Below, one piece after another: positions 14,513 to 35,167 of a stretch of 50,438 bases of DNA. The notes below the pieces were generated by a model, which was given only the letters and a program-made list of their open reading frames with translations, did no database searches and was not told the origin of the DNA. The translations under genes were made by a program, and so were the position numbers. The DNA lies in contig CAZHRF010000020.1 of NCBI GenBank assembly GCA_964534625.1, forward strand, positions 1-50,438. The letters are read 5' to 3'. The DNA is from an uncultured archaeon (GTDB taxonomy: Archaea; Asgardarchaeota; Heimdallarchaeia; Heimdallarchaeales; Heimdallarchaeaceae). Every line of letters starts with the position of its first letter. Within the stretch, counting starts at the first letter, position 1.

Positions 14513-15214
14513 TTAATCTTGTTTCCAAATGAGGCCACAAGTTAACGGATTATCCTCAATAAGTATCTCTGCTAGTTTTGAACAATCCTTTAAAGGAGAA
14601 AGATCTAAAAAGTGTAATTTGTTACTGCTTAGAAATAAAGAGCTCAAATTGAGACAGTTTTGCAAAGGAGAAAAATCAATTGTTGTTAAGGAGTTTTCTG
14701 ATAATTCTAAAATTTTAAGGCTTACACATCTTTGCAAAGGGGATAAATCAATCTGTGTTAATTGATTAATCCATAAAGAGAGTATTTCTAAATGTAGACA
14801 ACGTTTAAGGGGAAAAAGGTTCACACTTTTCAATTCATTACTAGACAGCCACAATTTTTCCAATTTCAAGCAATTAGCTAAAGGATAAAGATCAATGCAT
14901 TTCAGAGTATTATCGTGTAAAGACAATTCTTTTAATTTTGGACAATATTTTAAGGGGGTAAAGTCTATATCTATTAGACAGTTGTTATCTATGAAAAATT
15001 CTTCTAAATTTGTACAATACTGTAACGGTGAAAGATCAATATTCTTTATTTGATTACAAGAAAGATTCAATATTTTTAGATTCTCACATGCTTGTAAAGG
15101 TAATAGATCTATTGTTTCAATGAATTCTGCTAATTCTAATGCTATGATAGTTTCAGGATTTTCTATATCTTTTTCAAAGAATGATCCATCATTTTTAGTT
15201 CCTATTATCTTCAT
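14513..15214 (-). CDS. Leucine-rich repeat protein (22-aa IDLSPLxxCxxLxxLxLxxNxL repeats)
   Basis: About 9 tandem LRRs visible in the translation. Confidence 0.92.
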   Translation of the reverse strand: MKIIGTKNDGSFFEKDIENPETIIALELAEFIETIDLLPLQACENLKILNLSCNQIKNIDLSPLQYCTNLEEFFIDNNCLIDIDFTPLKYCPKLKELSLHDNTLKCIDLYPLANCLKLEKLWLSSNELKSVNLFPLKRCLHLEILSLWINQLTQIDLSPLQRCVSLKILELSENSLTTIDFSPLQNCLNLSSLFLSSNKLHFLDLSPLKDCSKLAEILIEDNPLTCGLIWKQD

Positions 15215-16084: not shown

Positions 16085-17185
16085 CTATTTTTTCTTACCT
16101 GATCTTGTTTTTTCTTGCTCATACCAGGTATTGAAGGCTAATTCAAGGGAATTTAAAACTTCATTAAGCTCTGTGTCCTCAGCAGGTTGTATTTTGTTAT
16201 CTTTAAATTTTAGTTTAAGAGCACCAGACCCTACACTCTCGGCTAGAAAGGTTTTAAGTTCTATTTCTTCCATTTTCATAATTTCAGCAGCTTCGTCAAC
16301 ATCTATCTGTCCATATAATTGTAGTATACCTTTAAAACGGTCAAGTTGTTTCTTTCTAGAATCAACTTGCTCCTCTGAAGAAGGAGTAGAAGAACCAGTG
16401 AATACCCAGGCCAAAGATAAGGCAATTAAAGGGAGAGTAAAAGCTGTTAAAAAAAGAAAAATTAGTGCAGACACCAAAAAAGGAAGCTGAACATTGGAGA
16501 TGGAAAACTTATTCTCTGCTTCTAATCTAAATAGTTCCATCAACGAACTAGATTCATTATTCATGATTACAAGAATTGAAAGAGTTTTAGATAAAACAGT
16601 TAGATAAATAACTAAATTCACAAAAATAAACATTGGGGATTGGTAAAAGAATGGTAATTCATAATTAAACTGCATTATGTAGTCCTTTGAGACAAATTGA
16701 GATAAATTATATGTGAATGTACCTTGTTTATTAAAAAAAGATAAGAAACGATACCCATTAATTAAATAAACTATTAATAAAGGAGTGCCAATAATTTCAA
16801 AAAACAAGTTAGTCTTATCAGTAAGATCCAATGACAAGTGTAAATAACTAGAAGCAAATAATGAAATTAAGAAAATAATATGAAATATTTGAGAAACTTG
16901 ATTATTATAAACAGTAACATTTACTATATTAACTGAATTATATTTGTAAAACTCAAATTGTACATTATAAAATATGATTGTAAGAGTTAAATTTTTAGGC
17001 ACTGTTTCTCCTTGAACTGTTTCTAGTTTGTGTTCTTGTACATAACTATTCAAGAAATTTTCAATTATTCTTGGAGATGGAACAATTAATATAAAAATAA
17101 GACTAATAAGGGCTATCAAACAGAATGTACGATAAAGATATTTTTGAATGGATTTACACTCTCTATTGAATACAAATTTCATCAT
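16085..17185 (-). CDS. Multi-pass membrane protein with C-terminal winged-helix/PCI-like domain
   Basis: Several TM segments, then RKKQLDRFKGILQLYGQIDVDEAA. Paralog of 29588..30688. Confidence 0.7.
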   Translation of the reverse strand: MMKFVFNRECKSIQKYLYRTFCLIALISLIFILIVPSPRIIENFLNSYVQEHKLETVQGETVPKNLTLTIIFYNVQFEFYKYNSVNIVNVTVYNNQVSQIFHIIFLISLFASSYLHLSLDLTDKTNLFFEIIGTPLLIVYLINGYRFLSFFNKQGTFTYNLSQFVSKDYIMQFNYELPFFYQSPMFIFVNLVIYLTVLSKTLSILVIMNNESSSLMELFRLEAENKFSISNVQLPFLVSALIFLFLTAFTLPLIALSLAWVFTGSSTPSSEEQVDSRKKQLDRFKGILQLYGQIDVDEAAEIMKMEEIELKTFLAESVGSGALKLKFKDNKIQPAEDTELNEVLNSLELAFNTWYEQEKTRSGKKK

Positions 17186-17532: not shown

Positions 17533-17732
17533 TATTTTTTAGTGCTTCCAATTAAATATTTAATACTAAATGAAAAAAAAACAAAAAATCCTTACATGTT
17601 TTTCTTCATTTTTCGAAAAATGTTTTTTCAGTACAAGGTAAATAAAAAAATGTACTCCTCAGGTGGGGTGGCTAGGCGTTTAAGTCGATGTTTACACTAA
17701 TATGAGAACATGCAGATGTTAATTGAAATTTT

Positions 17733-17775
17733 AGATTCTAAAAAAACTACGCTATTGAATTAAAGAAGATCACTA
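17733..17775. repeat. 43-bp direct repeat (second copy 19553..19595; partial copy 20279..20296)
   Basis: agattcta(a/g)aaaaactac(g/c)ctattgaattaaagaa(g/a)at(c/t)acta, 39/43 identical. Confidence 0.85.
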
Positions 17776-19535: not shown

Positions 19536-19702
19536 CATACATATTTTAATTGAGATTCTAGAAAAACTACCCTATTGAATTAAAGAAAATTACTAGAACT
19601 TGATGTAAGATACGCTCATCCTCACATGTGTAATTAGAAAGTAGAGAAAAAGGCGATAGTCGAAAGTATTTTTATACCGAACAACAAGTTACTATTACTA
19701 TC

Positions 19703-19936: not shown

Positions 19937-20307
19937 TGATGAAAATGAGAGCACATATTAACCTTCAACGTGCTTTGGAACATATCTAAAAGGCATTTAT
20001 GGAGTCTATAGTTAGTCTAAAAGTAGATGAAGAACGCCCTCTCTTAACAATTTATTTTAAAAATGGGATTTATCTGTATATCCGATACAATGACTTTGGG
20101 GAGTATTCGTATCAAATTATGGTCTCTCAAGATAAATATGATAGAATATGTTATGACAATTATGATGATCATTGAGATGTATCAACTAAACCACACCATC
20201 TGCATCAAAGAGGGAAGAAAAAAGCTAAAAAAAGTGAAATGATGGGAAAGCCAGATGAAGACATGCACATGTTATTTAAGATTCTAGAAAAACTACTCCA
20301 TAAGTGA
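19936..20307 (+). pseudogene. DUF6516/TumE-like toxin pseudogene with two in-frame stops
   Basis: ...LYIRYNDFGEYSYQ...RICYDNYDDH*DVSTKPHHLH...LEKLLHK*. Confidence 0.7.
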
Positions 20308-22302: not shown

Positions 22303-22503
22303 TTGATGACAGTTAGAAATGTTTCAATCTCTAATGAAACTTATGAAATATTGGTTAAATTAAAACTACCTAATGAAGAAATTGGAGATGTAATTAGAAG
22401 ATTATGTGAGGAGAAAACTGTTAAAAAGTTATTACAAACAATCTCATCACAACCATATTGGAGTGATATGCCTGAAGATGAGTACAAAGCATTCAAAGAA
22501 TAA
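22303..22503 (+). CDS. Orphan VapB-type antitoxin (DUF217-like), possibly truncated
   Basis: VRNVSISNETYEILVKLK..NE.IGDVIRRL. No toxin downstream. Confidence 0.65.
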   Translation: MMTVRNVSISNETYEILVKLKLPNEEIGDVIRRLCEEKTVKKLLQTISSQPYWSDMPEDEYKAFKE

Positions 22504-22645: not shown

Positions 22646-24190
22646 TTATTCAAGTATGCTTCCAATTGCTGATGATAATTCATTTAAATTAGAACAAGAA
22701 AAGACATAGTCACAATATTCTACGTACTGGCCAATAATAGAATCACCAGTGTTCCAAAGACCCTTGTCTTCAGGATTTATCCATATAACTTTGTTCACTT
22801 TGCTTTTCCATAAAGATAAGAGATTAGTTCTTGAATCTCTATAATTATTTCTTGCATCACCAATAATAATCAATGATGTTCTTCGAGTAAGAATGTGAGA
22901 ATATAAATCATTAAAGTTAGAGAAAGCAATACCAAAATTACTATAACCCATATGATCTACATTTGTACTCTTGAGAAGTTTTAATATGGAATTGGGATCC
23001 TTTTCCATATTGTCGAATGCTATTTCATCAATTTCACTTACAAAAACAAATGATCTTACTTTTGACACCATATTGTGAAGTTCTGATAGGAACAACAAGA
23101 AAAAACCAACAGAAGAAACAACAGAACCAGAAATGTCACACAATGTAACTATTTCAGGTTTTCTTATTCTTTTTCGTTGCAAGATTATATCAATAGGAAC
23201 ACCACCATATTGAATACTTTTTCTCAGAGTCTTCTTAATATTTAATTTACCATAAATAGACTTCTTTCTTCGATAACTTATTCTTGTTGCCAATTTTTGG
23301 GCTAGAGTGTGAATTAGAACTTTAAACTGAGCTGCATACTCTAAATTCAAATGCTTAAGAGGAGTATTTAGCAGAGTAGAGTAAGAATAACCATACTTGA
23401 TATTGTTTCTATCATTAACGGATTGTGCAGCGAAGTAAGTTTCAAGATAGAATAATAAACGCTCCTTAAAATATACCATATTAGGAATGGCGTTTCGGGA
23501 TAATTCAGAAAGAAGAGTTTGACTCTCATAATGCTTACTAAGATCTAAAAGCAGTTTACTTAACTCAAGATTGAGATTGTTCCAGTCAATAAGATCTATA
23601 TCAATTGATGATGTGGATTGGTTTATTGAACCTATTTCTTCCTCTGTGTATTGTTTTCTCCAAGAGCACTCCTGTTGTTCTTTCTCATTTTTAACATATC
23701 TTTCTGCCATTTCTTGGGCAAGTAAGTCAATCACACCTTTTGGTGATAAAACTAACTGTGTGAGTAAGTGACTATAAGTGAAATTTTCAGCTAATTCGCT
23801 AACTGTTTTTTCAACTTGACGACGATGTTCAGAATACGGTTTTGTATCACTATTATCGCTTTCTCCACCCCTACGTTGATTCTGTCCAAGTTTCTTTTTT
23901 GTTGGTTTTCCTAATCCCTTGAGGTTAAGTTCCTTCCGCAGACCCCTCTTAGATAATTTTCTATTTGCTTTACGCTTGTGTTCTCTGAAAAATTCATTAA
24001 AAATATAGTCAAAAATGGGATATTCTACATGGGATTTTATTAAAGTACACCTCAGAGTTAAATAGAAAATATTACTGTCAAAAACAGATATTTTTTGAAG
24101 GGCTTTGTAACAGTCCATTTTATCTGAAATGGAAATTTTTATTCCTGCTTCCTTCAATAAATCTATGAACTCACTTACTAATTTTTCCAC
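22646..24190 (-). CDS. vWA-domain CoxE-like protein
   Basis: FIDLLKEAGIKIS; GKLNIKKTLRKS..YGGVP; MIDAS CDISGS; IIGDARNNY; WINPE..W.TGDS. Confidence 0.9.
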   Translation of the reverse strand: MEKLVSEFIDLLKEAGIKISISDKMDCYKALQKISVFDSNIFYLTLRCTLIKSHVEYPIFDYIFNEFFREHKRKANRKLSKRGLRKELNLKGLGKPTKKKLGQNQRRGGESDNSDTKPYSEHRRQVEKTVSELAENFTYSHLLTQLVLSPKGVIDLLAQEMAERYVKNEKEQQECSWRKQYTEEEIGSINQSTSSIDIDLIDWNNLNLELSKLLLDLSKHYESQTLLSELSRNAIPNMVYFKERLLFYLETYFAAQSVNDRNNIKYGYSYSTLLNTPLKHLNLEYAAQFKVLIHTLAQKLATRISYRRKKSIYGKLNIKKTLRKSIQYGGVPIDIILQRKRIRKPEIVTLCDISGSVVSSVGFFLLFLSELHNMVSKVRSFVFVSEIDEIAFDNMEKDPNSILKLLKSTNVDHMGYSNFGIAFSNFNDLYSHILTRRTSLIIIGDARNNYRDSRTNLLSLWKSKVNKVIWINPEDKGLWNTGDSIIGQYVEYCDYVFSCSNLNELSSAIGSILE

Positions 24191-26172
24191 TACGCACCAC
24201 CACCTACTATCTCCAAAAGAATTTTTTTCACATTTCCCTTTTCTAGAGGAAGCAAACCTTGAACTAGAACAGGAATATTAGATTGTGGATGATTTTTGTG
24301 AATGTTTAACAAAACTTCTGCAGCTTTTGTTCTCATACTACGCGTCAAAGTACCCCCTAATAATAAAGAAAAAATAAGAGAAGTAAATGATGCGGGTACA
24401 GGATTGGTTAATAACACAGAAAAAATACAGAACCAATCTTTACTAGTTACAGTTTTAAACAGTTCCCCCATAACTTCTGCTAGTTCGTGGTCTAGAATAC
24501 TCCGGATCATTTTTTTCTTGTAAAACACTGGACTAGTGGAAAAGGTAGATAAAATCTGTTCTGATTTCCAGTTACTTAGGTCTGGATTCTGTTGTAAAAA
24601 TTTATCACTATTATTCGCTACTACTCGTCCTTTAGGGGTAAGACAAAGAAGAGGAATGGAATAGGAGTAACTCTTATAGGTTTTAACATAGATGAAATCA
24701 GATGATATGGCCTCATTGATTAGATTAGTAATAATACTCTGGGTTAAATAAGATAACTTTGTATATTGGGAATTTTCTTGAAGGTTATTTTCAGTTACAA
24801 CCTTACTCTTTGACCCATTAAGTATGAGGGATAAAGCGTTCCTACCTACTTTTCCTTCTACCTCACTTAAAGCTAAAAGAATGTAGACTATCTGGGGTGG
24901 AACAGATGGTTCAGTAAAATTATACTCGTCGGCTTTTTCAAGAGCGGTAAGCAATCGCTCCTTTATTTTTTGTAATTTGCTAGTGTATTTTGCTTGATGA
25001 CCATACTTATAACGACACGAACAGACAGGAAATCCCCTATTATGAACAACACTATTGGCATCTAAATCAAATTCCAATTTTCTAATTCCACTATGAACAT
25101 ATTTGAACATCTTTTCAATACGAGATGAAGAGACACCTAATTTCCAAAGAAACAGTTCTTTTTCATGGATATTCTCTTTTATCTGTGTAATTTCAAGGGT
25201 GATATCTTTCAATAGGTTTGCATTTTCATCATGAAACTTGTAATATATGTCCTCATAGTCAGATAGAAGCAAATTGTTTAGATGTTCTAGATTTTCTCCC
25301 AACTTTTCCTTAGAGGGGGAGGGTAGACGATTGTCTACGAACCAGTCCTTGCATTTTTCCCGGAAATGTTTGACATAATCATCAAAACATTTTTTCATAC
25401 TTTGTTTTTTGATCAACCTATAGGTTTTCTTCAGTTTTTTAAATTGGGGGAGGTGACACAAGTCATACTGGTAAGAAAAGTTCAGAAAACTAAGTTTAGG
25501 ATTTATTTCAAAATCATACAATAGAGGTGAAAAATCATCAGTAAAAAAAGCAACTAAATCTTTTATTCTTCTAAAGAGGAAAGATTCCATAGGTTTGGCT
25601 TTAGATACCGTTACTTTGAGTTTGTCAAAAATATCAATGCACATAGAAAGAAGCTCGTCATTCTTGTCCAGCCCAAAATATAACCACTCTTCAAGAACTT
25701 CTTGTCGTTCATCCCATTTAGTAATAATCTCGTTTACAATAGGAAGAAAAGGATCTATTCCTGTATATTCCATATTTTCAAGCATCTCAGTCTTAATAGG
25801 TTTCCCATTAATAGCAGAGAGTAACTGTAACAGATCTTCTCTTTCTTTTTCTCCTAATTGTTCAAAATTCCCCTCGTAATTCGTTGGATCTTGCTCTAAT
25901 TTTTTTCCCTCTTGGTACAACATATACTTGTACATTGAATCTTCAAGATCTATGATTTTTGGTAATGCCTTTAAAAACAAGTCCCAACGCAGTTTAGAAC
26001 GACATGTACTTTTGCTCGAAGACGAAACATAAACATAAACATAGTTGGAATCATGTGAATCATATATACCCAAACGCCTTGAATTCTTATTTCCTCTATA
26101 TCTAAGCAAGACCAACTGACCTTTCTCCAGATTTGGGTCTCTTGAAACAGTTTCTGTACTAGATCCAGTCAA
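24190..26172 (-). CDS. 660-aa protein with RQC (RecQ C-terminal) winged-helix domain and helical C-terminus
   Basis: GKVGRNALSLILNGSKSK...YTKLSYLT...I...I...FI...PLLCLTPKG. SD-like aggtg before the TTG start. Confidence 0.7.
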   Translation of the reverse strand: MTGSSTETVSRDPNLEKGQLVLLRYRGNKNSRRLGIYDSHDSNYVYVYVSSSSKSTCRSKLRWDLFLKALPKIIDLEDSMYKYMLYQEGKKLEQDPTNYEGNFEQLGEKEREDLLQLLSAINGKPIKTEMLENMEYTGIDPFLPIVNEIITKWDERQEVLEEWLYFGLDKNDELLSMCIDIFDKLKVTVSKAKPMESFLFRRIKDLVAFFTDDFSPLLYDFEINPKLSFLNFSYQYDLCHLPQFKKLKKTYRLIKKQSMKKCFDDYVKHFREKCKDWFVDNRLPSPSKEKLGENLEHLNNLLLSDYEDIYYKFHDENANLLKDITLEITQIKENIHEKELFLWKLGVSSSRIEKMFKYVHSGIRKLEFDLDANSVVHNRGFPVCSCRYKYGHQAKYTSKLQKIKERLLTALEKADEYNFTEPSVPPQIVYILLALSEVEGKVGRNALSLILNGSKSKVVTENNLQENSQYTKLSYLTQSIITNLINEAISSDFIYVKTYKSYSYSIPLLCLTPKGRVVANNSDKFLQQNPDLSNWKSEQILSTFSTSPVFYKKKMIRSILDHELAEVMGELFKTVTSKDWFCIFSVLLTNPVPASFTSLIFSLLLGGTLTRSMRTKAAEVLLNIHKNHPQSNIPVLVQGLLPLEKGNVKKILLEIVGGGA

Positions 26173-26192
26173 AGTGATACACCTTTACAAGA

Positions 26193-27104
26193 CTATGTCT
26201 CTATAAATTGCTTAATTTGTCGTTTAGCTTTCTTCAAATCCGTTTTGTGCTTAAGTAAAAGGTTGAGGGTATTCTCTATCATTTCTTTATCAAGTGTGTC
26301 AACATTTAATGAAACAAGAGCAGTAGCTCAATCAATACTCTCTGCTATACTAGGCATTTTTTTCCACTCACGGCGTCGAAGATGTTCAATAAAGGACAGA
26401 ATCTCTTGATTTAACTTCTCAGTCACTCCTGGAACTTTTAGTTTAATAATCTCCATTTCTTGTTCTGATGAAGGAAAATCTATGTAAAGATAAATACATC
26501 TACGCTTTAAAGCATCTGATAATTCACGTGTATTATTGCTTGTTAAAACAACAAATGGATGATGCTTAGCCTTTACTGTCCCAATTTCGGGAATACTAAC
26601 TTGAAAATCACTCAACGCTTCAAGTAAAAAACCCTCAGTTTCTCGATCACTCCGGTCTATTTCATCAATCAAAAGAACTACAGGAGTATCACATACTAAA
26701 GCCTGTAATAAAGGTCGGGGTTGAATAAAGTCAAAACTAAAGAAAGCATCATCTTGATTTTGAACTTTATGGACGGCTTCAATAAGTGAAGAAGTGTCAG
26801 ATAGAAATTCGTTAATTTTGCCACGTAGAACTTCAGCATATAAAAGCTGTTTGGAATAAGCCCATTCATATAATATATGGGTTTCATCAATCCCCTCATA
26901 ACACTGAAGACGGATTAGACGACGATTCATGATAGTAGCAAGGACTTTAGCCAATTCGGTTTTACCAACACCAGGTTCGCCTTCAACCAATAAAGGCTTA
27001 CCCAACTTATGAGCAAGCCATATAGCTGTTGTAATATCAGTACCACAAATATATTTGGCCTTATTTCTAAAATCGTGTTGTATAGATTCGACTGATTCTA
27101 AAAT
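26193..27104 (-). pseudogene. MoxR/CoxD-type AAA+ ATPase with in-frame TGA at 26328..26330 (conserved Trp position)
   Basis: GEPGVGKT, RLQCYEG, LLIDEIDR, ELSDALKRRC, PSIAESID*ATAL. Frame stays open 44 aa to TAG 26193. ggaggt precedes ATT at 27104. Confidence 0.85.
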
Positions 27105-27205
27105 AGTTATACCTCCTTGATAGTAATTTAAAGACATATACATATAAAAACATATCAGAGATAGAAAAGTTAAATGACGGGATGAAGCTTCAGTTACGAT
27201 TTCAT

Positions 27206-29395
27206 TCAAAGTCTAATAATTTCTTTTTTGAGTATCTTTTTCAACATTTTTTGATTCAAACGAGAGAGACCTTCACCACGCCTTGATGAATTGAGAAGCG
27301 TCTCGTTTCTATTTTTATGCTGAAGTAACAATAATGCCCGTTCGAATAAAGATAAAACTGCCTTGTCTCGTTTATTTTCTTGTCTATAGTCATTAAGTTT
27401 GTGTTCAATAATGTCAGCGGTCATCAGTAACTTCTTTTCTACACGTTGATCTGAAGTTAATTTTGCACTATACTTGAAAAAAGTATGCACCCAAATAGAA
27501 CGTATGCCATCATAGAAGAAATTTTGTTCAACAAACTTACGTATCCCTTCATCATTAGTCACTATAACAGGTACGATATCAGACTCATTATATTCAATAG
27601 CATTCTGAATGATATTATAGTCATAATACTCTTTCTTATCAAAAGTGGGGCGTTTAAGGTTCTCATTTATTTCAACAAGAAATTGTTTTTGAGTATCACC
27701 TATGGTATATTGTTGAAAGTTCATCAATGATCTGATAAGAGAAATATTATCTTTATACCGCACAGGTAAATCAGAAAGTATACTTGGAGGAGCAATATAA
27801 TCACTAATGGAGCTCTCTTCATAAAGTGGGGCTATTAGGGACAATACATCAAGTAAAGAATAGTCAATAAGGTAGCACAGAAGATTGGTGTCAAAAATGA
27901 ACAGAAAGTAGGGAGTAGACTCTTTAAGTAATTGCTCTTCTTTTTTGATTTTTAGCATGTATCGTCTAAAATAGCGCTTTTTATAATCAGCAAGAATATT
28001 AGTATATTCTAAGGCTTTAGTAGCATAAATTTTAGCAAGCTTGTATTCTCTATGGAAAAAAGCTTGGCGTTTTAACTGAAGGAAAGCTTCAACAATAAGC
28101 AAGTGATGATAAATTTCCAAATCGATGGAATAATAACCTAGTTTAATACCTATAAAACGATTGATTTTATCAGATATACGACTTAAAGTGCTCTTTCTCA
28201 AGCTTTGTTGAATTTCATTGAAATAGAAAGAATGGAGGGTGAAAAGAGCTTGTAAGGTTGGATCAGATTCAAACCTTTTGCCTAATTCTTTGCCTAAATC
28301 AAAAAATATCTGTTGCAAGGGATTATTTGTCCAATGTTTTAAACCAAGCATAAAGCATAGATGTATGATAAGGTTCAAATTTTCCTCTTTAGATAGATCT
28401 GTACAAGTTAATTCTTGCTCTAATCTATAGATTAGTGTTTTAAATGACCAAGGTTTGAAAAGTTTTTGAAAGAATCCCACATCAGGTTGACAAGGATTAT
28501 CATGTAAATAATGAATAAATTCTTGAAGGGAGCCATCATAATCAGATGTAGAGACAGTTTTAAGAAGGATTAAAAGCCTAGAAACAAGAGAGTATTCGGA
28601 AGACAAATCCAAAATACTCCTGATTTGTGTCCACTCATCTACTTTTATATGTCGTTTTTTTGCTTCGCTATAAATAGCATAAAGCACTTCTTTCAAATCT
28701 AATGTTTCTATGGGTGTATTTAGTTCCAGAAATGTGATATGGTGTAATAGCTCTCGCCTGGACTGAATTTTATGGTATCTTCCACAACCTTTCCATCCTG
28801 TAATCATGTTAACAAAGGTGTTATTGATGCAAGAGGTAAATAGTTGATAATAATCCATGTTATAATGGAGTAAATTGGCTAAATAGAGTACCCAATTATA
28901 AAAGCCATAATTAGAAAAAACCTCATAAGAAGCCTCCAATAAGAGATGAAAAGAATATGATCGATCTAGAAAGTTTCCAGCCAAAACGTACTCTATCTCA
29001 TGGGTTTGGTACCACAAAGAAGCTATCTTATGTTTGACAATCTTACGAGAGAACTTAACCCGGAAAGGTTTAGTCAATTCTTGGTTGTTGACTACATACG
29101 TTAAAATCACAAAAGAGGGAGTATTCTGATTAACAACGAAAGAATTGATGTAAAGATCAACTAGAACCGTTTGATCTACTCCTATAGTTTGTGATTCTTC
29201 AAAATCAATCTCAGCATAGCCACCCTTTATGCGAGAATAAAATTCAATGTTGGAAATGACTAATACCTTGTTAGTCCAATTTTGTATTCTTAGCTGTAAA
29301 TTATAATCAAATCCACCTAATTGTTCTGATGAATCCGAGTATATTACTGAAAGATTTCCTTTAATATCATACTCTTTTTTTTTTGCGTCTACCAT
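27206..29395 (-). CDS. 729-aa protein: beta-sandwich-like N-terminus, helical middle, C-terminal PIN nuclease domain
   Basis: FIFDTNLL, APPSILSDL, YYDYNII, VIVTNDEGI form a PIN-type acidic set. Confidence 0.65.
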   Translation of the reverse strand: MVDAKKKEYDIKGNLSVIYSDSSEQLGGFDYNLQLRIQNWTNKVLVISNIEFYSRIKGGYAEIDFEESQTIGVDQTVLVDLYINSFVVNQNTPSFVILTYVVNNQELTKPFRVKFSRKIVKHKIASLWYQTHEIEYVLAGNFLDRSYSFHLLLEASYEVFSNYGFYNWVLYLANLLHYNMDYYQLFTSCINNTFVNMITGWKGCGRYHKIQSRRELLHHITFLELNTPIETLDLKEVLYAIYSEAKKRHIKVDEWTQIRSILDLSSEYSLVSRLLILLKTVSTSDYDGSLQEFIHYLHDNPCQPDVGFFQKLFKPWSFKTLIYRLEQELTCTDLSKEENLNLIIHLCFMLGLKHWTNNPLQQIFFDLGKELGKRFESDPTLQALFTLHSFYFNEIQQSLRKSTLSRISDKINRFIGIKLGYYSIDLEIYHHLLIVEAFLQLKRQAFFHREYKLAKIYATKALEYTNILADYKKRYFRRYMLKIKKEEQLLKESTPYFLFIFDTNLLCYLIDYSLLDVLSLIAPLYEESSISDYIAPPSILSDLPVRYKDNISLIRSLMNFQQYTIGDTQKQFLVEINENLKRPTFDKKEYYDYNIIQNAIEYNESDIVPVIVTNDEGIRKFVEQNFFYDGIRSIWVHTFFKYSAKLTSDQRVEKKLLMTADIIEHKLNDYRQENKRDKAVLSLFERALLLLQHKNRNETLLNSSRRGEGLSRLNQKMLKKILKKEIIRL

Positions 29396-29587: not shown

Positions 29588-30688
29588 CTACTTCTTTTTA
29601 CCTTTTCCTTTATCTTCTTGTTCATACCATTTGGTAAAGGCGATTTCAAGAGTATCTAAAACATCTGCCAACTCAGCCTCTTCTGCGGGAATTATTTTTC
29701 CATCTTTTAATGTGAGTTTTAAAACTCCAGAACCCACATTTTCTGCTAAAAACTTTTTAAACTCGTTTTCTTCCATTTCCATAGTTTCAATGGCTTCATC
29801 AATGCTGATTTCTCCATAAAGAGAAATCAGTCCTTTAAACCTATCAAGTTGTTTCTTTCTTGCTTCTTCATCAGAAATAGACGGTTGATCAATTGAAGAA
29901 CCAGTAAAAACCCAAGCTAAGGAGAGAGAAACAAGGGGGATGGAGAAAGCACTTAAAAACGAAAATATGAGACTTGCTATAAGAAAAGGAACTCGATCTT
30001 TTGAAACATTAACTTCACCCTCATTTTTCAGTCTAAAAAGACTCAAAATAGAAGTTGTATTATTACTCATGGTTACAAGAATAGATAGAATTTTTGCAAG
30101 TATATTTATAAGGAGAAAAATAATTATGAAAGTAAAATATGGCGAATCATAAAAAATAGGTTTTTCATAAACATATTGCATAATGTAATTATTAGTATAG
30201 ATATATGATACAGGATGTATAAGTATACCAGTTTTTCTTCCTAAAACCAGTAAAATATATTTATGAGTCAAATAAAAAAGTCCTAAAGGGGTGCTGAAAA
30301 TCTCAAAAAGTCGATTTCGTTTATCACTAAGATCCAAGGACAAAAATAAATAATTCGATACAAAAATAACTACTAATATAAGTATATGCACTACTTTCAT
30401 AAAATGGGGATAGAATATTTTTACTTCAACAATGTTATTTGAGCTACCAGCTCGACAATCGAATTCAACTTGATATATACCAAAAAATTTTAAGTTAAAT
30501 GGTTCAGGAACAATTGAACCATTTTCAAATTGTTTTGTTTCCAAATCGTTCTGTTGAGCATAATTATTCACTTGTTTTTCAATTAACCCTGGATACGGGA
30601 TGATAAAAAGCATAATAATAAAAACAAAAATTGTAATACTTAATACTCGATAAATACGCTTGATAATCAAATCTGTCTTTTGCCCCAT
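29588..30688 (-). CDS. Multi-pass membrane protein with C-terminal winged-helix/PCI-like domain (paralog of 16085..17185)
   Basis: Same length (366 aa). Shared LSLDL.DK.N..FEI..TPL, LSLAWVFTGSS, RKKQLDRFKG, LE.AF..WYEQE. Confidence 0.7.
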   Translation of the reverse strand: MGQKTDLIIKRIYRVLSITIFVFIIMLFIIPYPGLIEKQVNNYAQQNDLETKQFENGSIVPEPFNLKFFGIYQVEFDCRAGSSNNIVEVKIFYPHFMKVVHILILVVIFVSNYLFLSLDLSDKRNRLFEIFSTPLGLFYLTHKYILLVLGRKTGILIHPVSYIYTNNYIMQYVYEKPIFYDSPYFTFIIIFLLINILAKILSILVTMSNNTTSILSLFRLKNEGEVNVSKDRVPFLIASLIFSFLSAFSIPLVSLSLAWVFTGSSIDQPSISDEEARKKQLDRFKGLISLYGEISIDEAIETMEMEENEFKKFLAENVGSGVLKLTLKDGKIIPAEEAELADVLDTLEIAFTKWYEQEDKGKGKKK

Positions 30689-31310: not shown

Positions 31311-34300
31311 TTAGTTGCATGGTCCTCCTGCTTTATGATAATATGGACAAGTTTGACATTTTCCATAGGTTGAACAAGATTTACCTTCTATCAGGTAGTC
31401 AAACCCTTTTTTTGGTATAATTTTAGTGTTTTTTAATAGAGCCTTTTCTACTTCCTTTGTAAATTGTTTCAAGTCAATATCTTTCTCTACTAGTTGTATG
31501 TTAGAGCTAATATAAACAACCTTGGTTTTGACATTTGCATATTGAGGATAGTTATTTGTAAACAGCCACTTATATGCTGCCATTTGATAATGGTACACTC
31601 TATCCAGATAGCTAGCTGCGGGTGGAGGAGTACCTGTCTTGTAATCTATCAAGATCCATTCATCAGATTCAGTTTGAAAGAATAGGTCTATATTTCCAAC
31701 AATTATGGAAGAGAGATTTTCTTTTCCTACATCCATCCCCGCATGTAGTTCAAGTTCACAGAAGAATTCACCTTTACGTTGGCTATAGAGACTTTTAATT
31801 GTAGGATTAGTTATATAGTCTTCTATAAGTTGGCTTATTCTTTGTTTGGCAGTCTCATCTTCTATCTCATGTAGAACTTCTTTTTTAATCCTCTCCATTT
31901 CTCCTTCCGCTTGTTCATTTAAACTAAGATGCACCCTTTCCAATATTCTATGTACAATTGTTCCCCATTCTGCCGCTGACATTCCATCTGGTGGATTTGC
32001 TCCTGGAGGGAGATTCTTGAAGTATGGTTGTAATAATTGTGAGCTATCTACTAGATTTAATGTTGAATACGCATATCTTCGTGGACAGGATATAAGATCA
32101 TAAATATGTTTTGCACTCAGAGTTATAGGGGAATAATTAGCATAGTTTAAAGCATCAATTACTGGGGGTAGTGGAGGTTCCTTTTCTTTTATTTCCATCT
32201 CTTTGAAACTCACTTTTTGGGGTATATGCGATTTGAATGGTTCAACATAGAAGTTTATTTTTATCTTCAAGTCTTCTTCTAACTGGACTTCTTTCCCGTA
32301 GAAATTTTGTGTTGGCATACTCTCCGGTAGTTTTTCTTTTATCATTTCATTGAATACCATTAACCATTCAGTTTCCGAACTGGATCTATTCACAGGTAAA
32401 TGAAGAACAAGATGATCTCTAGCTCTTGTCATAGCGACATATAGTATCCTCCAGTTTTCTGCTATCTCTTTTTTTAATATATTATTAACTGGACTATGAA
32501 ATCGGAAATAGCCATTATCCCGTGCTCTACTTAACCAGAACACCCCACCTGACCAGAAACTTTTAGGAAACAATCTTCCATCGCTTGGACCATGGAGATC
32601 TTTTTCATAATTCTTATCCCAGGATGTTTCAACAAAGAAGGGCTTAATATAACAGCCCATTTCTCGATCTAGAACAATCTTTCGTGAGCTAGGGGAATAA
32701 ATGATATCCGCGTTAAACAACTCTGGAATGATAACAACTGGAAATTCTAGACCTTTACTCTTGTGTATAGTCATCAATTTTACTCGTTCTTTTGATTTGA
32801 AATCCCCTAGTTTTTTAACTGTGTAATCCTTTTTATTTTTTAAGCTTCTTTCTCGTAATTTTTTGAGTTTAGTAACAAATTTTCTATAAGAGAGAAGGTC
32901 TTCTTCTTCCCATTCTTTTACTATCTCAACCAGTAACTGAATGTTACCATATCTTTCTAGGGGGTGGTCGTGACTGGTTAAAAGAATAACATCTAACGCC
33001 CCATGATCAACTATTTTTTGAATAAGAACGGATTTTTCTCCTTCTCTATCCCACCTGAGGTCGTCTCGGAGGCGTACTAACGCACGTAACCTATCAAGGT
33101 CTCCGGTCTGGTTAAGCTCTTTTTCTAATTTATCATCTAGTTTGTCTAAAGCAGTAGACAAATCAAAGTCTTTAGAAGATAAATAACGGAGAGTTTGGTC
33201 AGAAAGCGAAATAAGAGGCGAACGCAAGATGTGAAGTAAGGAAAATTTATTATGCGGATTTGAAAACCAGTCCATTACATCCACCATCAGCTGTATCTCA
33301 GGTTGGTCAAACAATGTATCATCAGATATAACAGAATAGGGTATCCCATATACGTTTAATTTTTCAGCAAATAATGGAATGTGCTTTTTATATCTAAATA
33401 GTAAAGTAAAATCACCTGCTAAAGGGTTACGATAGGGAGAACTAGAATTATCAGCACCAGCAGATTCATCTTCTATCCTTAGGGGGATATCCCCATTCAA
33501 AGCATCGTTTATGAATTGTGCAACTTTGAGAGCTTCAGTTTCTCTCATCTCCTTTTTCTTCATTTTTTCAGTAGATAAGAGAAGATGGATATTACTGCTA
33601 GTATCTTCGGTGCAAGAGCTTTGTCTATAAGGTTCCAGAGGTATATATTCAATATTGGTATTAGAGATATTTCCTCTAAAATCACAATCAAAGATAGATT
33701 TAAACAAGTAATTAACCAAGTGGATAATATCAGATTTAGATCTAAAATTGGTTTTAAGAGGTAAATGAGTAGCTTGTTGAATGTCAAAAGCTAGGTCAGA
33801 GTATTGACCGTTTTTAGCTGCTGAGATAATATCAGCAAAGATTTCGGGTTCAGCTGATCGCCATTCATAAATAGACTGTTTAACATCTCCAATAGTTGAT
33901 ATACTATTGAAAGAAGAATCTTTAGCATCTCCAGCTTCGTTATCCTGTTCCTTTCCTTTATTCTCATTATTTACAAATTGATTCAAAATTGAACATTGCA
34001 CAAAACTTGTATCTTGAAATTCGTCAATGAGAATGTAATCAAATTGATTTCTTAGGTGACAACGTAATAGATCAGAATCTTTATCTTCAAGGTAAGAATA
34101 CAGCAAGAAACAGACATCAAGGAAGGTCAAAGTACCTGTCGATTTGATTTTTTCATCGTATAGTTCGCTATATTCTTGTGCTATCCTAGCTATATTTTCA
34201 TACCCTTGAACCATCTGGTAATAAGCTTGTTCCATACTTTCTTTTAGAATATCCTTTTTTTCTTGTGGATAAGCTAGCATATCACTTTCATTATCTTTGT

Positions 34301-35162
34301 TGGTTAAATTAGTTATAATCGTTATAATCTCATCATAGGAAAGGGGAGGTTCATAATCTGAATAGTAAGACCTTACAGCATTTAACAAAATATTGGCATA
34401 AGAAGAAGGTTTCCATGCAAACTCTCGTGCTTTATCATGTAACTTTTCAACTAACTCAAATAAATAACTATTATAGTCATTATAATAATCTTCAGGAAAA
34501 ACTTCTTCTAGCCCAGAGATAACACTTTTCAAGTTGTTATTTTCATAAATTTCAGTAATTATCTCTTCTTTCATAGTATCAATATCAAGCAAAGGAGCAA
34601 TCTCAAACAAAGGATTAAGGTCAATATCTAATGCCACTTCTTTGAGCATGTCTATGAAATAGGAATCGATCGTCTGAATATTGGAAGCTGTACTTAACCA
34701 CCGATAAACATTATCGATTTTAGACGGTGTTAGACCTAAGAGGTGAAGGAGTTGAGTATCATTAAAATAGTCTTGTTTTAATACGCGTTTAAGTCTTGTT
34801 GAGAACTGTTTAGCTGCATCTCGACCGAAAGTTAACACCAATATTTTCTCAAAAGGATTAGAATCAGGTTCAGAAGCCAGTTCAATTACCACTATATTCG
34901 CAAGAATATCAATTAAAGTAGTAGTTTTACCTGTACCTGCTCCTGAATCAACTATAACACGACCAGTAGAATCGAAAAGAAAAGAAGAAACTACGTCTTT
35001 CTGGTCCTGAGATAAGTGGGAGTTGTCAATTCTATTTTCGAGATAATGAATGATTTGAGAGGATAGAGTGGAATTGCCATTCGTAATGGTATGTAAAGTC
35101 TTATTGTCATCCGTATTATTGTCATTATTTTTACTTGTATCAGTATTTGTTTCTTTCTTCAT
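31311..35162 (-). CDS. AddA/AdnB-like SF1 (UvrD) helicase with C-terminal RecB-type nuclease and Fe-S staple cysteines
   Basis: SGAGTGKT, IDEFQDTS, GDVKQSIYEWR, NFRS, TIHKSKGLEF, LYVAMTRAR, GNIDL...IDYKTG, YQMAAY; CPRR and CQTC..C. Confidence 0.9.
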   Translation of the reverse strand: MKKETNTDTSKNNDNNTDDNKTLHTITNGNSTLSSQIIHYLENRIDNSHLSQDQKDVVSSFLFDSTGRVIVDSGAGTGKTTTLIDILANIVVIELASEPDSNPFEKILVLTFGRDAAKQFSTRLKRVLKQDYFNDTQLLHLLGLTPSKIDNVYRWLSTASNIQTIDSYFIDMLKEVALDIDLNPLFEIAPLLDIDTMKEEIITEIYENNNLKSVISGLEEVFPEDYYNDYNSYLFELVEKLHDKAREFAWKPSSYANILLNAVRSYYSDYEPPLSYDEIITIITNLTNKDNESDMLAYPQEKKDILKESMEQAYYQMVQGYENIARIAQEYSELYDEKIKSTGTLTFLDVCFLLYSYLEDKDSDLLRCHLRNQFDYILIDEFQDTSFVQCSILNQFVNNENKGKEQDNEAGDAKDSSFNSISTIGDVKQSIYEWRSAEPEIFADIISAAKNGQYSDLAFDIQQATHLPLKTNFRSKSDIIHLVNYLFKSIFDCDFRGNISNTNIEYIPLEPYRQSSCTEDTSSNIHLLLSTEKMKKKEMRETEALKVAQFINDALNGDIPLRIEDESAGADNSSSPYRNPLAGDFTLLFRYKKHIPLFAEKLNVYGIPYSVISDDTLFDQPEIQLMVDVMDWFSNPHNKFSLLHILRSPLISLSDQTLRYLSSKDFDLSTALDKLDDKLEKELNQTGDLDRLRALVRLRDDLRWDREGEKSVLIQKIVDHGALDVILLTSHDHPLERYGNIQLLVEIVKEWEEEDLLSYRKFVTKLKKLRERSLKNKKDYTVKKLGDFKSKERVKLMTIHKSKGLEFPVVIIPELFNADIIYSPSSRKIVLDREMGCYIKPFFVETSWDKNYEKDLHGPSDGRLFPKSFWSGGVFWLSRARDNGYFRFHSPVNNILKKEIAENWRILYVAMTRARDHLVLHLPVNRSSSETEWLMVFNEMIKEKLPESMPTQNFYGKEVQLEEDLKIKINFYVEPFKSHIPQKVSFKEMEIKEKEPPLPPVIDALNYANYSPITLSAKHIYDLISCPRRYAYSTLNLVDSSQLLQPYFKNLPPGANPPDGMSAAEWGTIVHRILERVHLSLNEQAEGEMERIKKEVLHEIEDETAKQRISQLIEDYITNPTIKSLYSQRKGEFFCELELHAGMDVGKENLSSIIVGNIDLFFQTESDEWILIDYKTGTPPPAASYLDRVYHYQMAAYKWLFTNNYPQYANVKTKVVYISSNIQLVEKDIDLKQFTKEVEKALLKNTKIIPKKGFDYLIEGKSCSTYGKCQTCPYYHKAGGPCN

Positions 35163-35167
35163 TCTTT

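What the first reader, a model, noticed from the sequence alone, without database searches (positions are those of the whole stretch)
22646..29395. PIN-nuclease / MoxR AAA+ / RQC winged-helix / vWA cluster: candidate new conflict system
Seen: four co-oriented genes; the last three are tightly coupled with SD motifs. Known: CoxD-type MoxR and CoxE-type vWA genes form chaperone pairs that are usually adjacent and often serve CO/xanthine dehydrogenases, and MoxR-vWA pairs also occur in ternary conflict systems. Here no dehydrogenase is nearby. A 660-aa RQC DNA-binding protein without a RecQ motor sits between the pair, and a large helical protein with a C-terminal PIN domain lies ~100 nt upstream. 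Inference: the ATPase-vWA pair remodels a DNA-structure sensor and/or releases a PIN effector, in a defence-island setting.
Basis: partly seen in the sequence, partly recalled or inferred. Interest (0 to 1): 0.82.

Follow-up and report, generated by a model that had tools for sequence, protein, structure and literature searches.

The report
Asgard MoxR–RQC–vWA three-gene module
An Asgard archaeon carries a rare three-gene unit I found undescribed (a MoxR remodelling ATPase, a DNA-binding RQC protein without a helicase, and a vWA adaptor) that recurs in at least eight other places, while the neighbouring PIN nuclease gene is not part of it and its role in defence is unproven.

Summary
The four co-oriented genes exist as described, and all four domain calls hold. 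These are the MoxR AAA+, the CoxE-type vWA with an intact MIDAS, an RQC winged helix without a helicase, and a C-terminal PIN fold in the 729-aa protein.

The conserved unit is only MoxR–RQC–vWA. I found the same order, tightly packed, in eight further loci (one partial). These are Asgard MAGs and metagenome contigs. Their MoxRs are 63–79% identical and form one supported group, nested among bacterial two-gene MoxR–vWA pairs. None of 87 other MoxRs examined has the RQC gene.

The PIN gene is absent from every other locus. Its relatives sit elsewhere in related genomes, so it is a separate island gene.

The module is very sporadic, found in 3 of 400 genomes of the phylum. It has no recognisable effector and no PADLOC match, and its neighbourhoods are mixed. 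Toxin-antitoxin or methylase genes lie near four loci and metabolic genes near others.

In this genome the ATPase has an in-frame TGA at a conserved Trp and ATT where homologues have their start codon, so it may be impaired.

Best reading: a new variant of ternary MoxR–vWA systems that remodels a DNA-binding scaffold. A conflict role is plausible but unproven.

The parts
26191..27104 (-). MoxR-class AAA+ ATPase gene of the CoxD/MadB-like type, about 304 codons. It has ATT at the homologues' start position (27104..27102), 6 nt after GGAGGT. It has an in-frame TGA at 26330..26328.
   Evidence: Pfam AAA_5 and AAA hits. NCBIfam MadB_ATPase scores 311.6 bits, below the 475 cut-off. It is 63-79% identical to the MoxRs of the other trio loci. 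The TGA lies on the conserved Trp, and the 44 codons after it are still conserved in frame.
26328..26330 (-). In-frame TGA inside the MoxR gene, at the Trp of ESIDWA.
   Evidence: TGA is an ordinary stop in this genome, ending 279 of 1393 long ORFs. The homologues in all other trio loci are uninterrupted.
24190..26172 (-). 660-aa middle protein. Its parts are an N-terminal beta-barrel (residues 19-72), a variable helical region, a three-helix coiled-coil bundle (about 307-418) with a conserved H...CxC motif at 377-386, an RQC winged helix (421-527), and a HEAT-like helical module (529-660) that ends in a conserved FExGxLKKE-type tail.
   Evidence: Pfam RQC hit. AF2 model at pLDDT 67.5, with the well-predicted parts after residue 290. 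VIA-align Z 11.1 to the WRN RQC-DNA structure. Family alignment A2. The family is small: 11 representatives at E<1e-10 among 1.84 billion.
24592..24912 (-). RQC winged-helix domain of the middle protein (residues 421-527).
   Evidence: The invariant residues of the family cluster here (G443, R444, L447, I450, L451, G453, S454 and others).
22646..24190 (-). 514-aa CoxE-type vWA protein. It has an N-terminal CoxE-like helical domain, a basic linker, a middle region found only in trio loci, and a C-terminal vWA domain with the MIDAS motif (D352-x-S-x-S, G444-D-A-R-N-N).
   Evidence: Pfam VWA_CoxE scores 105.7 bits. NCBIfam MadC scores 126.9 bits, below the 600 cut-off. Alignment A4 covers these features. 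Its start overlaps the RQC stop by 1 nt.
27206..29395 (-). 729-aa protein with a C-terminal PIN-fold domain (residues about 497-689, bases 27329..27907). It is a neighbour, not part of the conserved module.
   Evidence: No family hit in Pfam, NCBIfam or PADLOC. The AF2 domain model has pLDDT 83, and its top Foldseek matches are all PIN domains. Relatives in the same class carry the domain at the N-terminus of proteins of about 530-610 aa, in genomes without the trio. No homologue lies upstream of any other trio.
27105..27205 (-). Spacer of 101 nt between the PIN-protein gene and the MoxR gene. It is A/T-rich, has a TTTTTATATG stretch, and has a GGAGGT 6 nt before the MoxR start position.
   Evidence: Read directly from the sequence and from the alignment of start regions. 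That the trio has its own promoter here is an inference.

Best explanation
The real unit is a self-contained, horizontally mobile three-gene operon, MoxR AAA+ - RQC/HEAT scaffold - CoxE-type vWA. It is a new variant of the 'ternary' MoxR-vWA systems.

Proposed mechanism:
1. The vWA protein holds the middle protein. I suggest the contact is between its intact MIDAS site and an exposed acidic peptide, and the conserved C-terminal FExGxLKKE tail is my candidate. This step is inferred.
2. The MoxR hexamer pulls on the vWA adaptor, as MoxR-vWA pairs do in general. This is inferred by family analogy.
3. The middle protein is thereby switched between conformations or assemblies that do or do not bind DNA through its RQC winged helix. 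This step is inferred.

The rarity, the variable N-terminus and repeat number of the middle protein, and the island-like settings make a role in conflicts with foreign DNA the likeliest use. No effector is encoded in the unit.

The PIN protein next door is a separate island gene. In this genome the ATPase gene has a premature TGA and no canonical start codon at the homologous position, so the module is probably impaired or expressed only by read-through.
For: **Shown**
- The same gene order, with tight spacing, occurs in L015 (a Helarchaeota MAG), L096, L098, L099, L127, L128, one Logan contig and a partial locus L095.
- Their MoxRs are 63-79% identical to the window's. Six of them form one group with SH-aLRT 99 on a quick tree. 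That group is nested among bacterial two-gene pairs and lies apart from the other Asgard MoxR-vWA pairs.
- In all 87 other MoxR loci examined, the vWA gene directly follows MoxR and no RQC gene is present.
- All trio vWAs keep the MIDAS residues. They also share a middle region that the bacterial relative lacks.
- The middle protein's conserved core is RQC plus the helical module plus the tail. In L127 and L128 this core alone makes up the whole protein of 239-263 aa. N-termini and repeat number vary between loci.
- The RQC fold matches WRN RQC bound to DNA.
- The predicted vWA x RQC(290-660) complex gave weak support. The score was 0.44, and the best of 3 controls was 0.00. The runs agreed in at least 83% of contacts, and partner pLDDT was at least 79. 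The pass mark was reached by 58 of 80 solved complexes and by 2 of 110 mismatched pairs. A score of 0.60 or under was seen in only 7 of those 80 solved complexes, and in both mismatches that passed.
- The distribution is sporadic: 3 of 400 genomes of the phylum.
- Toxin-antitoxin or methylase genes lie nearby in the window, L128, L127 and L098. Viperin and a HEPN gene lie in the same window.

**Family knowledge**
- vWA domains capture a peptide through the MIDAS site, and MoxR ATPase action remodels the bound partner (PMC7159879 section 8; NorQD, PMC13036017).
Against: - None of the three conserved proteins has a nuclease, protease, NADase or other effector domain. There is no PADLOC hit beyond generic AAA matches.
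- The nearest named relatives, MadB/MadC and CoxD/CoxE, are enzyme-maturation chaperones. One bacterial pair sits beside an NDMA-type alcohol dehydrogenase gene.
- Several trio loci lie among metabolic or unknown genes: aconitase, amine oxidase, a radical SAM enzyme and a serpin.
- DNA binding by this RQC domain is untested.
- The complex prediction is only weak support.
- The sample is nine loci, some on short contigs and not all phylogenetically independent.
- The tree is a quick tree.
Confidence: 0.5

Rival explanations
1. Client maturation. The MoxR-vWA pair does here what its closest relatives do, which is to insert or repair a metal site. The middle protein is simply the client, and its conserved H...CxC motif before the RQC domain is the site. 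The matured product would be a DNA-binding factor of unknown use, with no link to conflict.
For: - The MoxR and vWA are nearest to MadB/MadC and to CoxE-type families.
- The trio clade is nested among bacterial two-gene pairs. One of those pairs lies next to an NDMA-type Fe alcohol dehydrogenase gene.
- H377, C384 and C386 are conserved in all full-length members of the family.
- MoxR-vWA pairs are known metal-insertion chaperones (PMC13036017).
Against: - The minimal middle proteins in L127 and L128 lack the H...CxC region altogether, yet keep the trio.
- Only three candidate ligands are conserved.
- That segment is a low-confidence loop in the model.
- Extreme rarity and a variable N-terminus are unusual for a simple enzyme-client pair.
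Confidence: 0.2
2. The PIN protein is the effector, and the MoxR-vWA pair releases or activates it after the RQC protein senses DNA.
For: - The four genes are co-oriented, and the PIN gene ends 101 nt before MoxR.
- The PIN fold and its acidic residues are real.
- PIN domains occur among the effectors of known ternary MoxR-vWA systems (PMC7159879).
- In L128 a classical MazE-PIN pair lies about 1.1 kb upstream of the trio.
Against: - No homologue of the 729-aa protein lies next to any other trio. The upstream genes differ each time: an unknown membrane-like protein, a HEAT protein, a divergent TPR protein, or nothing for 1 kb.
- Relatives of its PIN domain occur in 24 other genomes of the class, in loci and genomes without the trio.
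- The spacer has its own A/T-rich, TATA-like stretch and an SD.
- The PIN pair in L128 is an ordinary two-gene toxin-antitoxin module.
Confidence: 0.08
3. A housekeeping or stress-related DNA-metabolism accessory. The RQC protein would be a DNA-end or fork-binding factor loaded or unloaded by MoxR-vWA, working with repair enzymes such as the AddAB-like pair nearby.
For: - RQC domains bind DNA ends and forks in RecQ helicases, and the model matches WRN RQC on DNA.
- An AddAB-like helicase-nuclease pair lies 7 kb away.
- Earlier notes of this scan report other Asgard MoxR-vWA pairs joined to SMC complexes (unchecked).
Against: - The trio is present in only 3 of 400 genomes of the phylum and in none of 30 genomes of the same family.
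- The AddAB-like pair is itself sporadic and is not next to the trio elsewhere.
- The ATPase gene is broken in this genome, which shows the module is dispensable.
Confidence: 0.1

Closest known systems
Ternary MoxR-vWA conflict systems (VMAP, iSTAND, FtsH and beta-propeller types; Kaur, Burroughs, Iyer, Aravind 2020, PMC7159879)
   Same: - A MoxR ATPase, a vWA protein with a CoxE-like N-terminal helical domain, and one large, variable third protein in one operon.
- A patchy, mobile distribution.
- Descent from CoxD-CoxE-like pairs.
   Different: - The third protein here is an RQC winged helix plus a HEAT-like scaffold, not a VMAP or an inactive STAND protein.
- It sits between MoxR and vWA.
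- No effector domain is present.
- The carriers include Asgard archaea (at least two of the MAGs; other contigs are unassigned), not multicellular bacteria.
- 'RQC' does not occur in that paper.
CoxD-CoxE and MadB-MadC-type MoxR-vWA chaperone pairs (NCBIfam NF047784, NF047783; Pfam PF05762)
   Same: These are the best-scoring named families for both proteins. The AAA+ motifs and the MIDAS site are intact.
   Different: - Both scores fall below the equivalog cut-offs: 311.6 against 475, and 126.9 against 600.
- There is no dehydrogenase client nearby.
- An extra gene is inserted between the pair.
- The trio vWAs have an additional middle region.
RQC domain of RecQ-family helicases (WRN, BLM, bacterial RecQ; Pfam PF09382)
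   Same: The winged-helix fold and the sequence signature are shared. Pfam scores above its cut-off. The model matches WRN RQC-DNA at Z 11.1 and D. radiodurans RecQ at Z 9.2.
   Different: There is no helicase core, no Zn-binding subdomain of the RecQ type and no HRDC domain. TIGR01389 recQ scores 13.7 bits against a 640 cut-off.
RQC-minor-1 family DNA-binding proteins (NCBIfam NF041107)
   Same: These are stand-alone RQC-type winged-helix proteins without a helicase. They are the best NCBIfam hit for every member of the middle-protein family.
   Different: All scores are 34-59 bits against a cut-off of 115, and only the winged helix aligns. The C-terminal helical module and tail are not covered.
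NorQ-NorD (MoxR-vWA metal-insertion motor; PMC13036017)
   Same: It is the mechanistic template: a vWA adaptor engages the AAA+ ring, and ATP-driven force is passed through a linker to a bound target.
   Different: The target there is a membrane nitric oxide reductase. No such enzyme is present here, and no finger or linker equivalence was tested.

Membership tests
MoxR-class AAA+ ATPase | AAA+ core with Walker A, Walker B, sensor 1 and arginine residues, and a match to MoxR-type AAA models | tested here: met
   GEPGVGKT, LLIDEID, TSNN and KRRC are present. AAA_5 E 4.8e-14, AAA_3 E 2.9e-10.
MadB family AAA ATPase (NF047784, equivalog) | Score at or above the curated cut-off of 475 bits | tested here: not met
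   311.6 bits. The other trio MoxRs score similarly, for example L015 at 313.2 bits.
CoxE-type vWA protein (PF05762) | Pfam match above the gathering score, plus an intact MIDAS (DxSxS ... D) | tested here: met
   105.7 bits against 26.4. D352-I-S-G-S and G444-D-A-R-N-N are invariant in alignment A4.
MadC family vWA protein (NF047783, equivalog) | Score at or above the curated cut-off of 600 bits | tested here: not met
   126.9 bits.
CoxD-CoxE CO/xanthine dehydrogenase maturation system | Molybdo-flavoprotein dehydrogenase genes (coxMSL-type) in the same locus | tested here: not met
   No such domains in the ORFs of the window that I scanned, nor in the trio loci elsewhere.
RQC domain (PF09382) | Pfam match above the gathering score, and a winged-helix fold like that of RecQ-family RQC | tested here: met
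   33.3 bits against 23. Z 11.1, rmsd 3.1, 103 of 109 residues aligned to WRN RQC-DNA.
RecQ helicase | SF2 helicase core preceding the RQC domain | tested here: not met
   No DEAD or Helicase_C hit. TIGR01389 scores 13.7 bits against 640.
PIN domain nuclease (729-aa neighbour) | PIN alpha/beta fold with three to four conserved acidic residues | tested here: met
   The AF2 model has pLDDT 83. The top Foldseek hits are Rrp44 PIN, Nmd4, Utp24, VapC and HARP (best E 2.9e-4, TM by target about 0.5-0.66). D502, D592 and D615 are conserved or invariant, and D542 aligns with E. The Pfam PIN models gave no hit for this protein. Nuclease activity was not tested.
Ternary MoxR-vWA conflict systems (Kaur et al. 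2020) | The third component is a VMAP, iSTAND, FtsH-like or beta-propeller protein carrying or recruiting effector domains | tested here: not met
   The third protein has only RQC and helical modules. There is no STAND NTPase, protease or effector domain.
Ternary MoxR-vWA conflict systems (Kaur et al. 2020) | A MoxR, vWA and third-gene operon that is mobile and patchily distributed | tested here: met
   Nine loci. Present in 3 of 400 genomes of the phylum. The MoxR clade is nested among bacterial pairs.
Known anti-phage defence systems (PADLOC-DB 2.0) | A specific match of any component to a defence-system model | tested here: not met
   There are only weak, generic P-loop matches for MoxR (best is TRIP13 at 24.7 bits). 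There are none for the other three proteins.

The most novel reading that the evidence does not exclude
The trio is a new kind of archaeal immune sensor, known so far mainly from Asgard MAGs. In this reading, a helicase-less RQC domain recognises ends or branched structures of invading DNA. The MoxR-vWA pair acts as an ATP-driven threshold switch on that sensor. The output is either direct blocking of the bound DNA or activation of effectors encoded elsewhere in the island, such as PIN or HEPN proteins.
Probability: 0.3. Interest if true: 0.7.

Novelty: new variant of a known kind. Interest (0 to 1): 0.5.

Why it matters
MoxR-vWA pairs are widespread remodelling motors, but few of their targets are known.

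Here the likely target is encoded between the two genes and is a DNA-binding domain otherwise tied to RecQ helicases. This gives a compact, testable case of an AAA+ motor controlling a DNA-binding protein.

If it proves to be a defence module, it would add a system that current archaeal and Asgard defence surveys do not list. MoxR is not mentioned in the surveys I found.

The PIN gene should not be included when the system is cloned or searched for. The copy in this genome is a poor choice for experiments because its ATPase gene is interrupted.

Tried and rejected
- **Word-index homologue searches.** For the 660-aa and 729-aa proteins these returned only the proteins themselves. The exhaustive HMMER search and genome searches were needed to find relatives.
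- **PIN-domain profile against PDB sequences.** Nothing significant. Only the fold search showed PIN.
- **Foldseek with the whole 660-aa model.** No match at E<=0.001. The wide VIA-align search then resolved the RQC domain.
- **ESM Atlas feature search of the 729-aa N-terminal part.** Scores of about 0.81, at noise level.
- **Meaning of 'MadA/B/C'.** Not found in the paper library.
- **Alternative genetic code (TGA=Trp).** Rejected. TGA ends 279 of 1393 long ORFs in this genome.
- **Composite-transposon idea.** Two 366-aa genes bracket the region, but they are only 47% identical membrane-protein paralogues and no inverted repeats were found. Rejected.
- **The VapB-like 66-aa ORF as antitoxin of the PIN protein.** No such ORF lies beside PIN relatives elsewhere. 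Not supported.
- **Rfam scan of the window.** No RNA family found.
- **Same-order Asgard MoxR-vWA pairs (G020-G030).** They looked like orthologues at first. They are 41-47% identical two-gene pairs in a separate clade.
- **Earlier scan notes.** A search by sequence and by words found no earlier finding of this trio on other DNA.


Full report
**What is in the sequence.** Between 22646 and 29395 the minus strand carries four consecutive ORFs.

- A 729-aa protein at 29395..27206.
- A MoxR-type AAA+ gene.
- A 660-aa protein at 26172..24190.
- A 514-aa protein at 24190..22646.

There are 101 nt before the MoxR gene, 18 nt between MoxR and the 660-aa gene, and a one-base overlap of that gene's stop with the GTG start of the last gene.

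The MoxR frame contains a TGA at 26330..26328. Read through, it lies on the Trp of an ESIDWA motif that is W in seven of eight aligned homologues. The 44 codons after it remain conserved in frame.

TGA is a normal stop in this genome, ending 279 of 1393 long ORFs. This is therefore a lesion, a read-through site or an assembly error, not another genetic code.

I also found ATT in the window at the position where all homologues have ATG or GTG. It lies 6 nt after GGAGGT, and in-frame ATGs lie 12-14 codons upstream. The read-level check was not possible.

**Domain calls.**

- MoxR has AAA_5 and AAA hits and all the nucleotide-binding motifs. Its best named family is NCBIfam MadB, but at 311.6 bits against a cut-off of 475.
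- The last protein is a CoxE-type vWA at 105.7 bits against 26.4, with an intact MIDAS. MadC scores 126.9 against 600.
- The 660-aa protein has a Pfam RQC domain at residues 431-525 and no helicase domain.
- An AlphaFold2 model built on ten family members has mean pLDDT 67.5, good after residue 290. It shows a small N-terminal beta-barrel, a poorly predicted helical region, a three-helix bundle, the winged helix and a C-terminal helical repeat module.
- A Foldseek-independent search put WRN RQC bound to DNA first, at Z 11.1, rmsd 3.1 and 103 of 109 residues.
- The 729-aa protein matches no family in Pfam, NCBIfam or PADLOC.
- Its C-terminal 190 residues have relatives in the same archaeal class.
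- A model of this part has pLDDT 83, and its top matches are all PIN domains: Rrp44, Nmd4, Utp24, VapC and HARP.
- Three Asp residues are conserved or invariant, and a fourth acidic position is kept.

**What is conserved elsewhere.** The genome is an Asgard MAG (3.37 Mb, 120 contigs, about 90% complete). The closest MoxR in species-representative genomes is in a Helarchaeota MAG at 65% identity.

In that contig (L015) MoxR is followed by a 710-aa RQC protein and a 567-aa CoxE-type vWA protein, tightly packed.

An exhaustive HMMER search with the 660-aa protein found a very small family: 18 representatives at E<=0.001 and 11 at E<=1e-10, among 1.84 billion.

Every member whose contig I could inspect lies between a MoxR gene and a CoxE-type vWA gene. 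These are L096, L098, L099 (where the middle protein is split into two genes), a Logan contig, L127, L128 and a partial locus L095. The one exception is a distant XPD-like helicase that shares only the RQC domain.

The MoxRs of these loci are 63-79% identical to the window's. On a quick maximum-likelihood tree, six of them form one group with SH-aLRT 99 (the careful search did not finish; L127, L128 and the Logan contig were not included). This group is nested among bacterial two-gene pairs from Binatota, Syntrophales, Roseiflexaceae, Geobacterales and actinomycetes.

The MoxR-vWA pairs of other Asgard genomes of the same order form a separate, distant group. In all 87 of those other loci the vWA gene directly follows MoxR.

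**The PIN gene fails that test.** Upstream of the other trios I found:

- an unrelated protein in L015;
- a HEAT-repeat protein in L096;
- a divergent TPR gene in the Logan contig;
- a 1-kb gap and then aconitase genes in L098;
- a divergent methylase in L127;
- two ordinary toxin-antitoxin pairs in L128.

Relatives of the 729-aa protein's PIN domain occur in 24 other genomes of the class. Usually the domain is at the N-terminus of proteins of about 530-610 aa, several of these genes are broken by stops, and the genomes have no trio.

In the closed genome G004 a broken copy lies within about 75 kb of a viperin, a NERD-like gene and an AddAB-like pair. I read the PIN gene as a member of a variable island, not as a component of the module.

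**Distribution and setting.** A profile of the middle protein found it in 3 of 400 genomes of the phylum and in none of the 30 genomes of the same family.

The window does contain bona fide defence genes:

- a viperin (PADLOC pVip, E 2e-81);
- a HEPN protein;
- a large protein whose N-terminus resembles PDC-M16A;
- a split D12 methylase;
- a VapB-type antitoxin ORF just downstream of the vWA gene.

Toxin-antitoxin or methylase genes also lie near the trio in L128, L127 and L098. Other loci are surrounded by metabolic or unknown genes.

With nine loci and abundant archaeal toxin-antitoxin genes, this is suggestive only.

**How it most likely works.** Established knowledge of MoxR-vWA pairs is that the vWA MIDAS captures a peptide of a partner, and the MoxR ring, acting through the vWA protein, remodels that partner (PMC7159879 section 8; NorQD, PMC13036017).

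The only conserved partner here is the middle protein. Its invariant core, which makes up the whole protein in L127 and L128, is the RQC winged helix, a helical repeat module and a conserved C-terminal FExGxLKKE-type tail.

I propose that the vWA protein holds the middle protein, and the acidic tail is my candidate MIDAS ligand. MoxR would then switch its conformation or assembly, and hence its DNA binding. All of these steps are inferred.

A complex prediction of the vWA protein with residues 290-660 of the middle protein gave weak support.

- The score was 0.44 against 0.00 for the best of three controls.
- The runs agreed in at least 83% of contacts, and partner pLDDT was at least 79.
- The pass mark was reached by 58 of 80 solved complexes and by 2 of 110 mismatched pairs.
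- A score of 0.60 or under was seen in only 7 of those 80 solved complexes, and in both mismatches that passed.

The prior for binding was already fair, because the two genes are translationally coupled and co-conserved. This therefore raises my odds modestly.

The variable N-termini and repeat numbers, the rarity, the apparent transfer from bacteria and the decay of the ATPase gene in this genome fit an accessory, conflict-type module. The lack of any effector and the chaperone ancestry argue for caution.

**Rivals.**

- The middle protein could be a client whose conserved H...CxC site is matured by the pair. The minimal forms lack that site, however.
- The four-gene PIN system is not supported.
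- A housekeeping DNA-repair role is unlikely given the distribution.

**Comparison with what is known, and novelty.** The closest concept is the ternary MoxR-vWA conflict systems of Kaur et al. 2020. This unit shares their logic and their CoxD/CoxE ancestry. It does not share any of their defining third components, and that paper does not mention RQC.

A full-text search for papers combining the RQC domain with MoxR or vWA showed none among the top results. The Asgard and archaeal defence surveys I found do not mention MoxR. Earlier notes of this scan contain no copy of this trio.

I therefore class it as a new variant of a known kind. It is real and conserved, but its function is unproven. 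The copy in this window is probably impaired.

Noticed in passing
window 22303-22503 (+): A 66-aa ORF matches the VapB-type 'putative antitoxin' family (PF02697, 30.3 bits against a 27.9 cut-off). It is convergent with the vWA gene and has no toxin gene next to it. Weak paralogues lie on contigs C105 and C49 of the genome.
   Followed up: partly
window 27102-27104 (-): The MoxR gene has ATT where all aligned homologues have ATG or GTG. A GGAGGT lies 6 nt upstream, and in-frame ATGs lie 12-14 codons further up. Together with the TGA, this makes two possible lesions in one gene.
   Followed up: partly
window 16085-17185 (-) and 29588-30688 (-): Two paralogous 366-aa multi-pass membrane proteins (47% identical, with a conserved charged C-terminal domain) bracket the stretch that holds the methylase, a three-gene cassette, the trio and the PIN gene. 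Neither has a Pfam hit.
   Followed up: partly
window 17730-17775, 19550-19595, 20256-20301: A roughly 46-nt sequence with the core AGATTCTAGAAAAACTAC recurs three times in intergenic DNA, at 83-89% identity. Its function is unknown.
   Followed up: no
window 31311-38614 (-); G004:C1:2526509-2533667: The AddAB-like pair consists of a UvrD helicase with a PD-(D/E)XK nuclease and a 1148-aa partner without any Pfam hit. It is itself sporadic, found in only 1 of 30 genomes of the same family. In that genome it lies within about 40 kb of a viperin and a NERD-like gene.
   Followed up: partly
window 46342-47190 (-), 43598-44005 (-), 47335-50436 (+): PADLOC confirms a viperin (pVip, E 2e-81) and a HEPN_IX-type protein. 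The N-terminal 190 residues of the open-ended 1034-aa protein resemble candidate system PDC-M16A.
   Followed up: partly
window 14513-15214 (-) and 39408-43007 (-): A 233-aa leucine-rich-repeat protein and a 1199-aa protein made of right-handed beta-helix/NosD repeats lie in the same variable region.
   Followed up: no
L099:1280-3646: In a soil-metagenome trio, the middle protein is encoded as two genes of 325 aa and 429 aa. The break falls just before the coiled-coil/CxC/RQC part. This shows that the variable N-terminal half is a separable module.
   Followed up: no
L103, L105, L106 (G007, G004, G010): Several relatives of the 729-aa PIN protein in sister genomes carry in-frame stops (TGA, TAG, TAA). 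This suggests frequent decay of the family.
   Followed up: no
L021:6663-10344: In Aneurinibacillus danicus, a MadB/MadC-like pair lies directly downstream of an NDMA-type Fe alcohol dehydrogenase-like gene (TIGR04266, 398 bits, below its cut-off). This hints at the client of the bacterial relatives.
   Followed up: no
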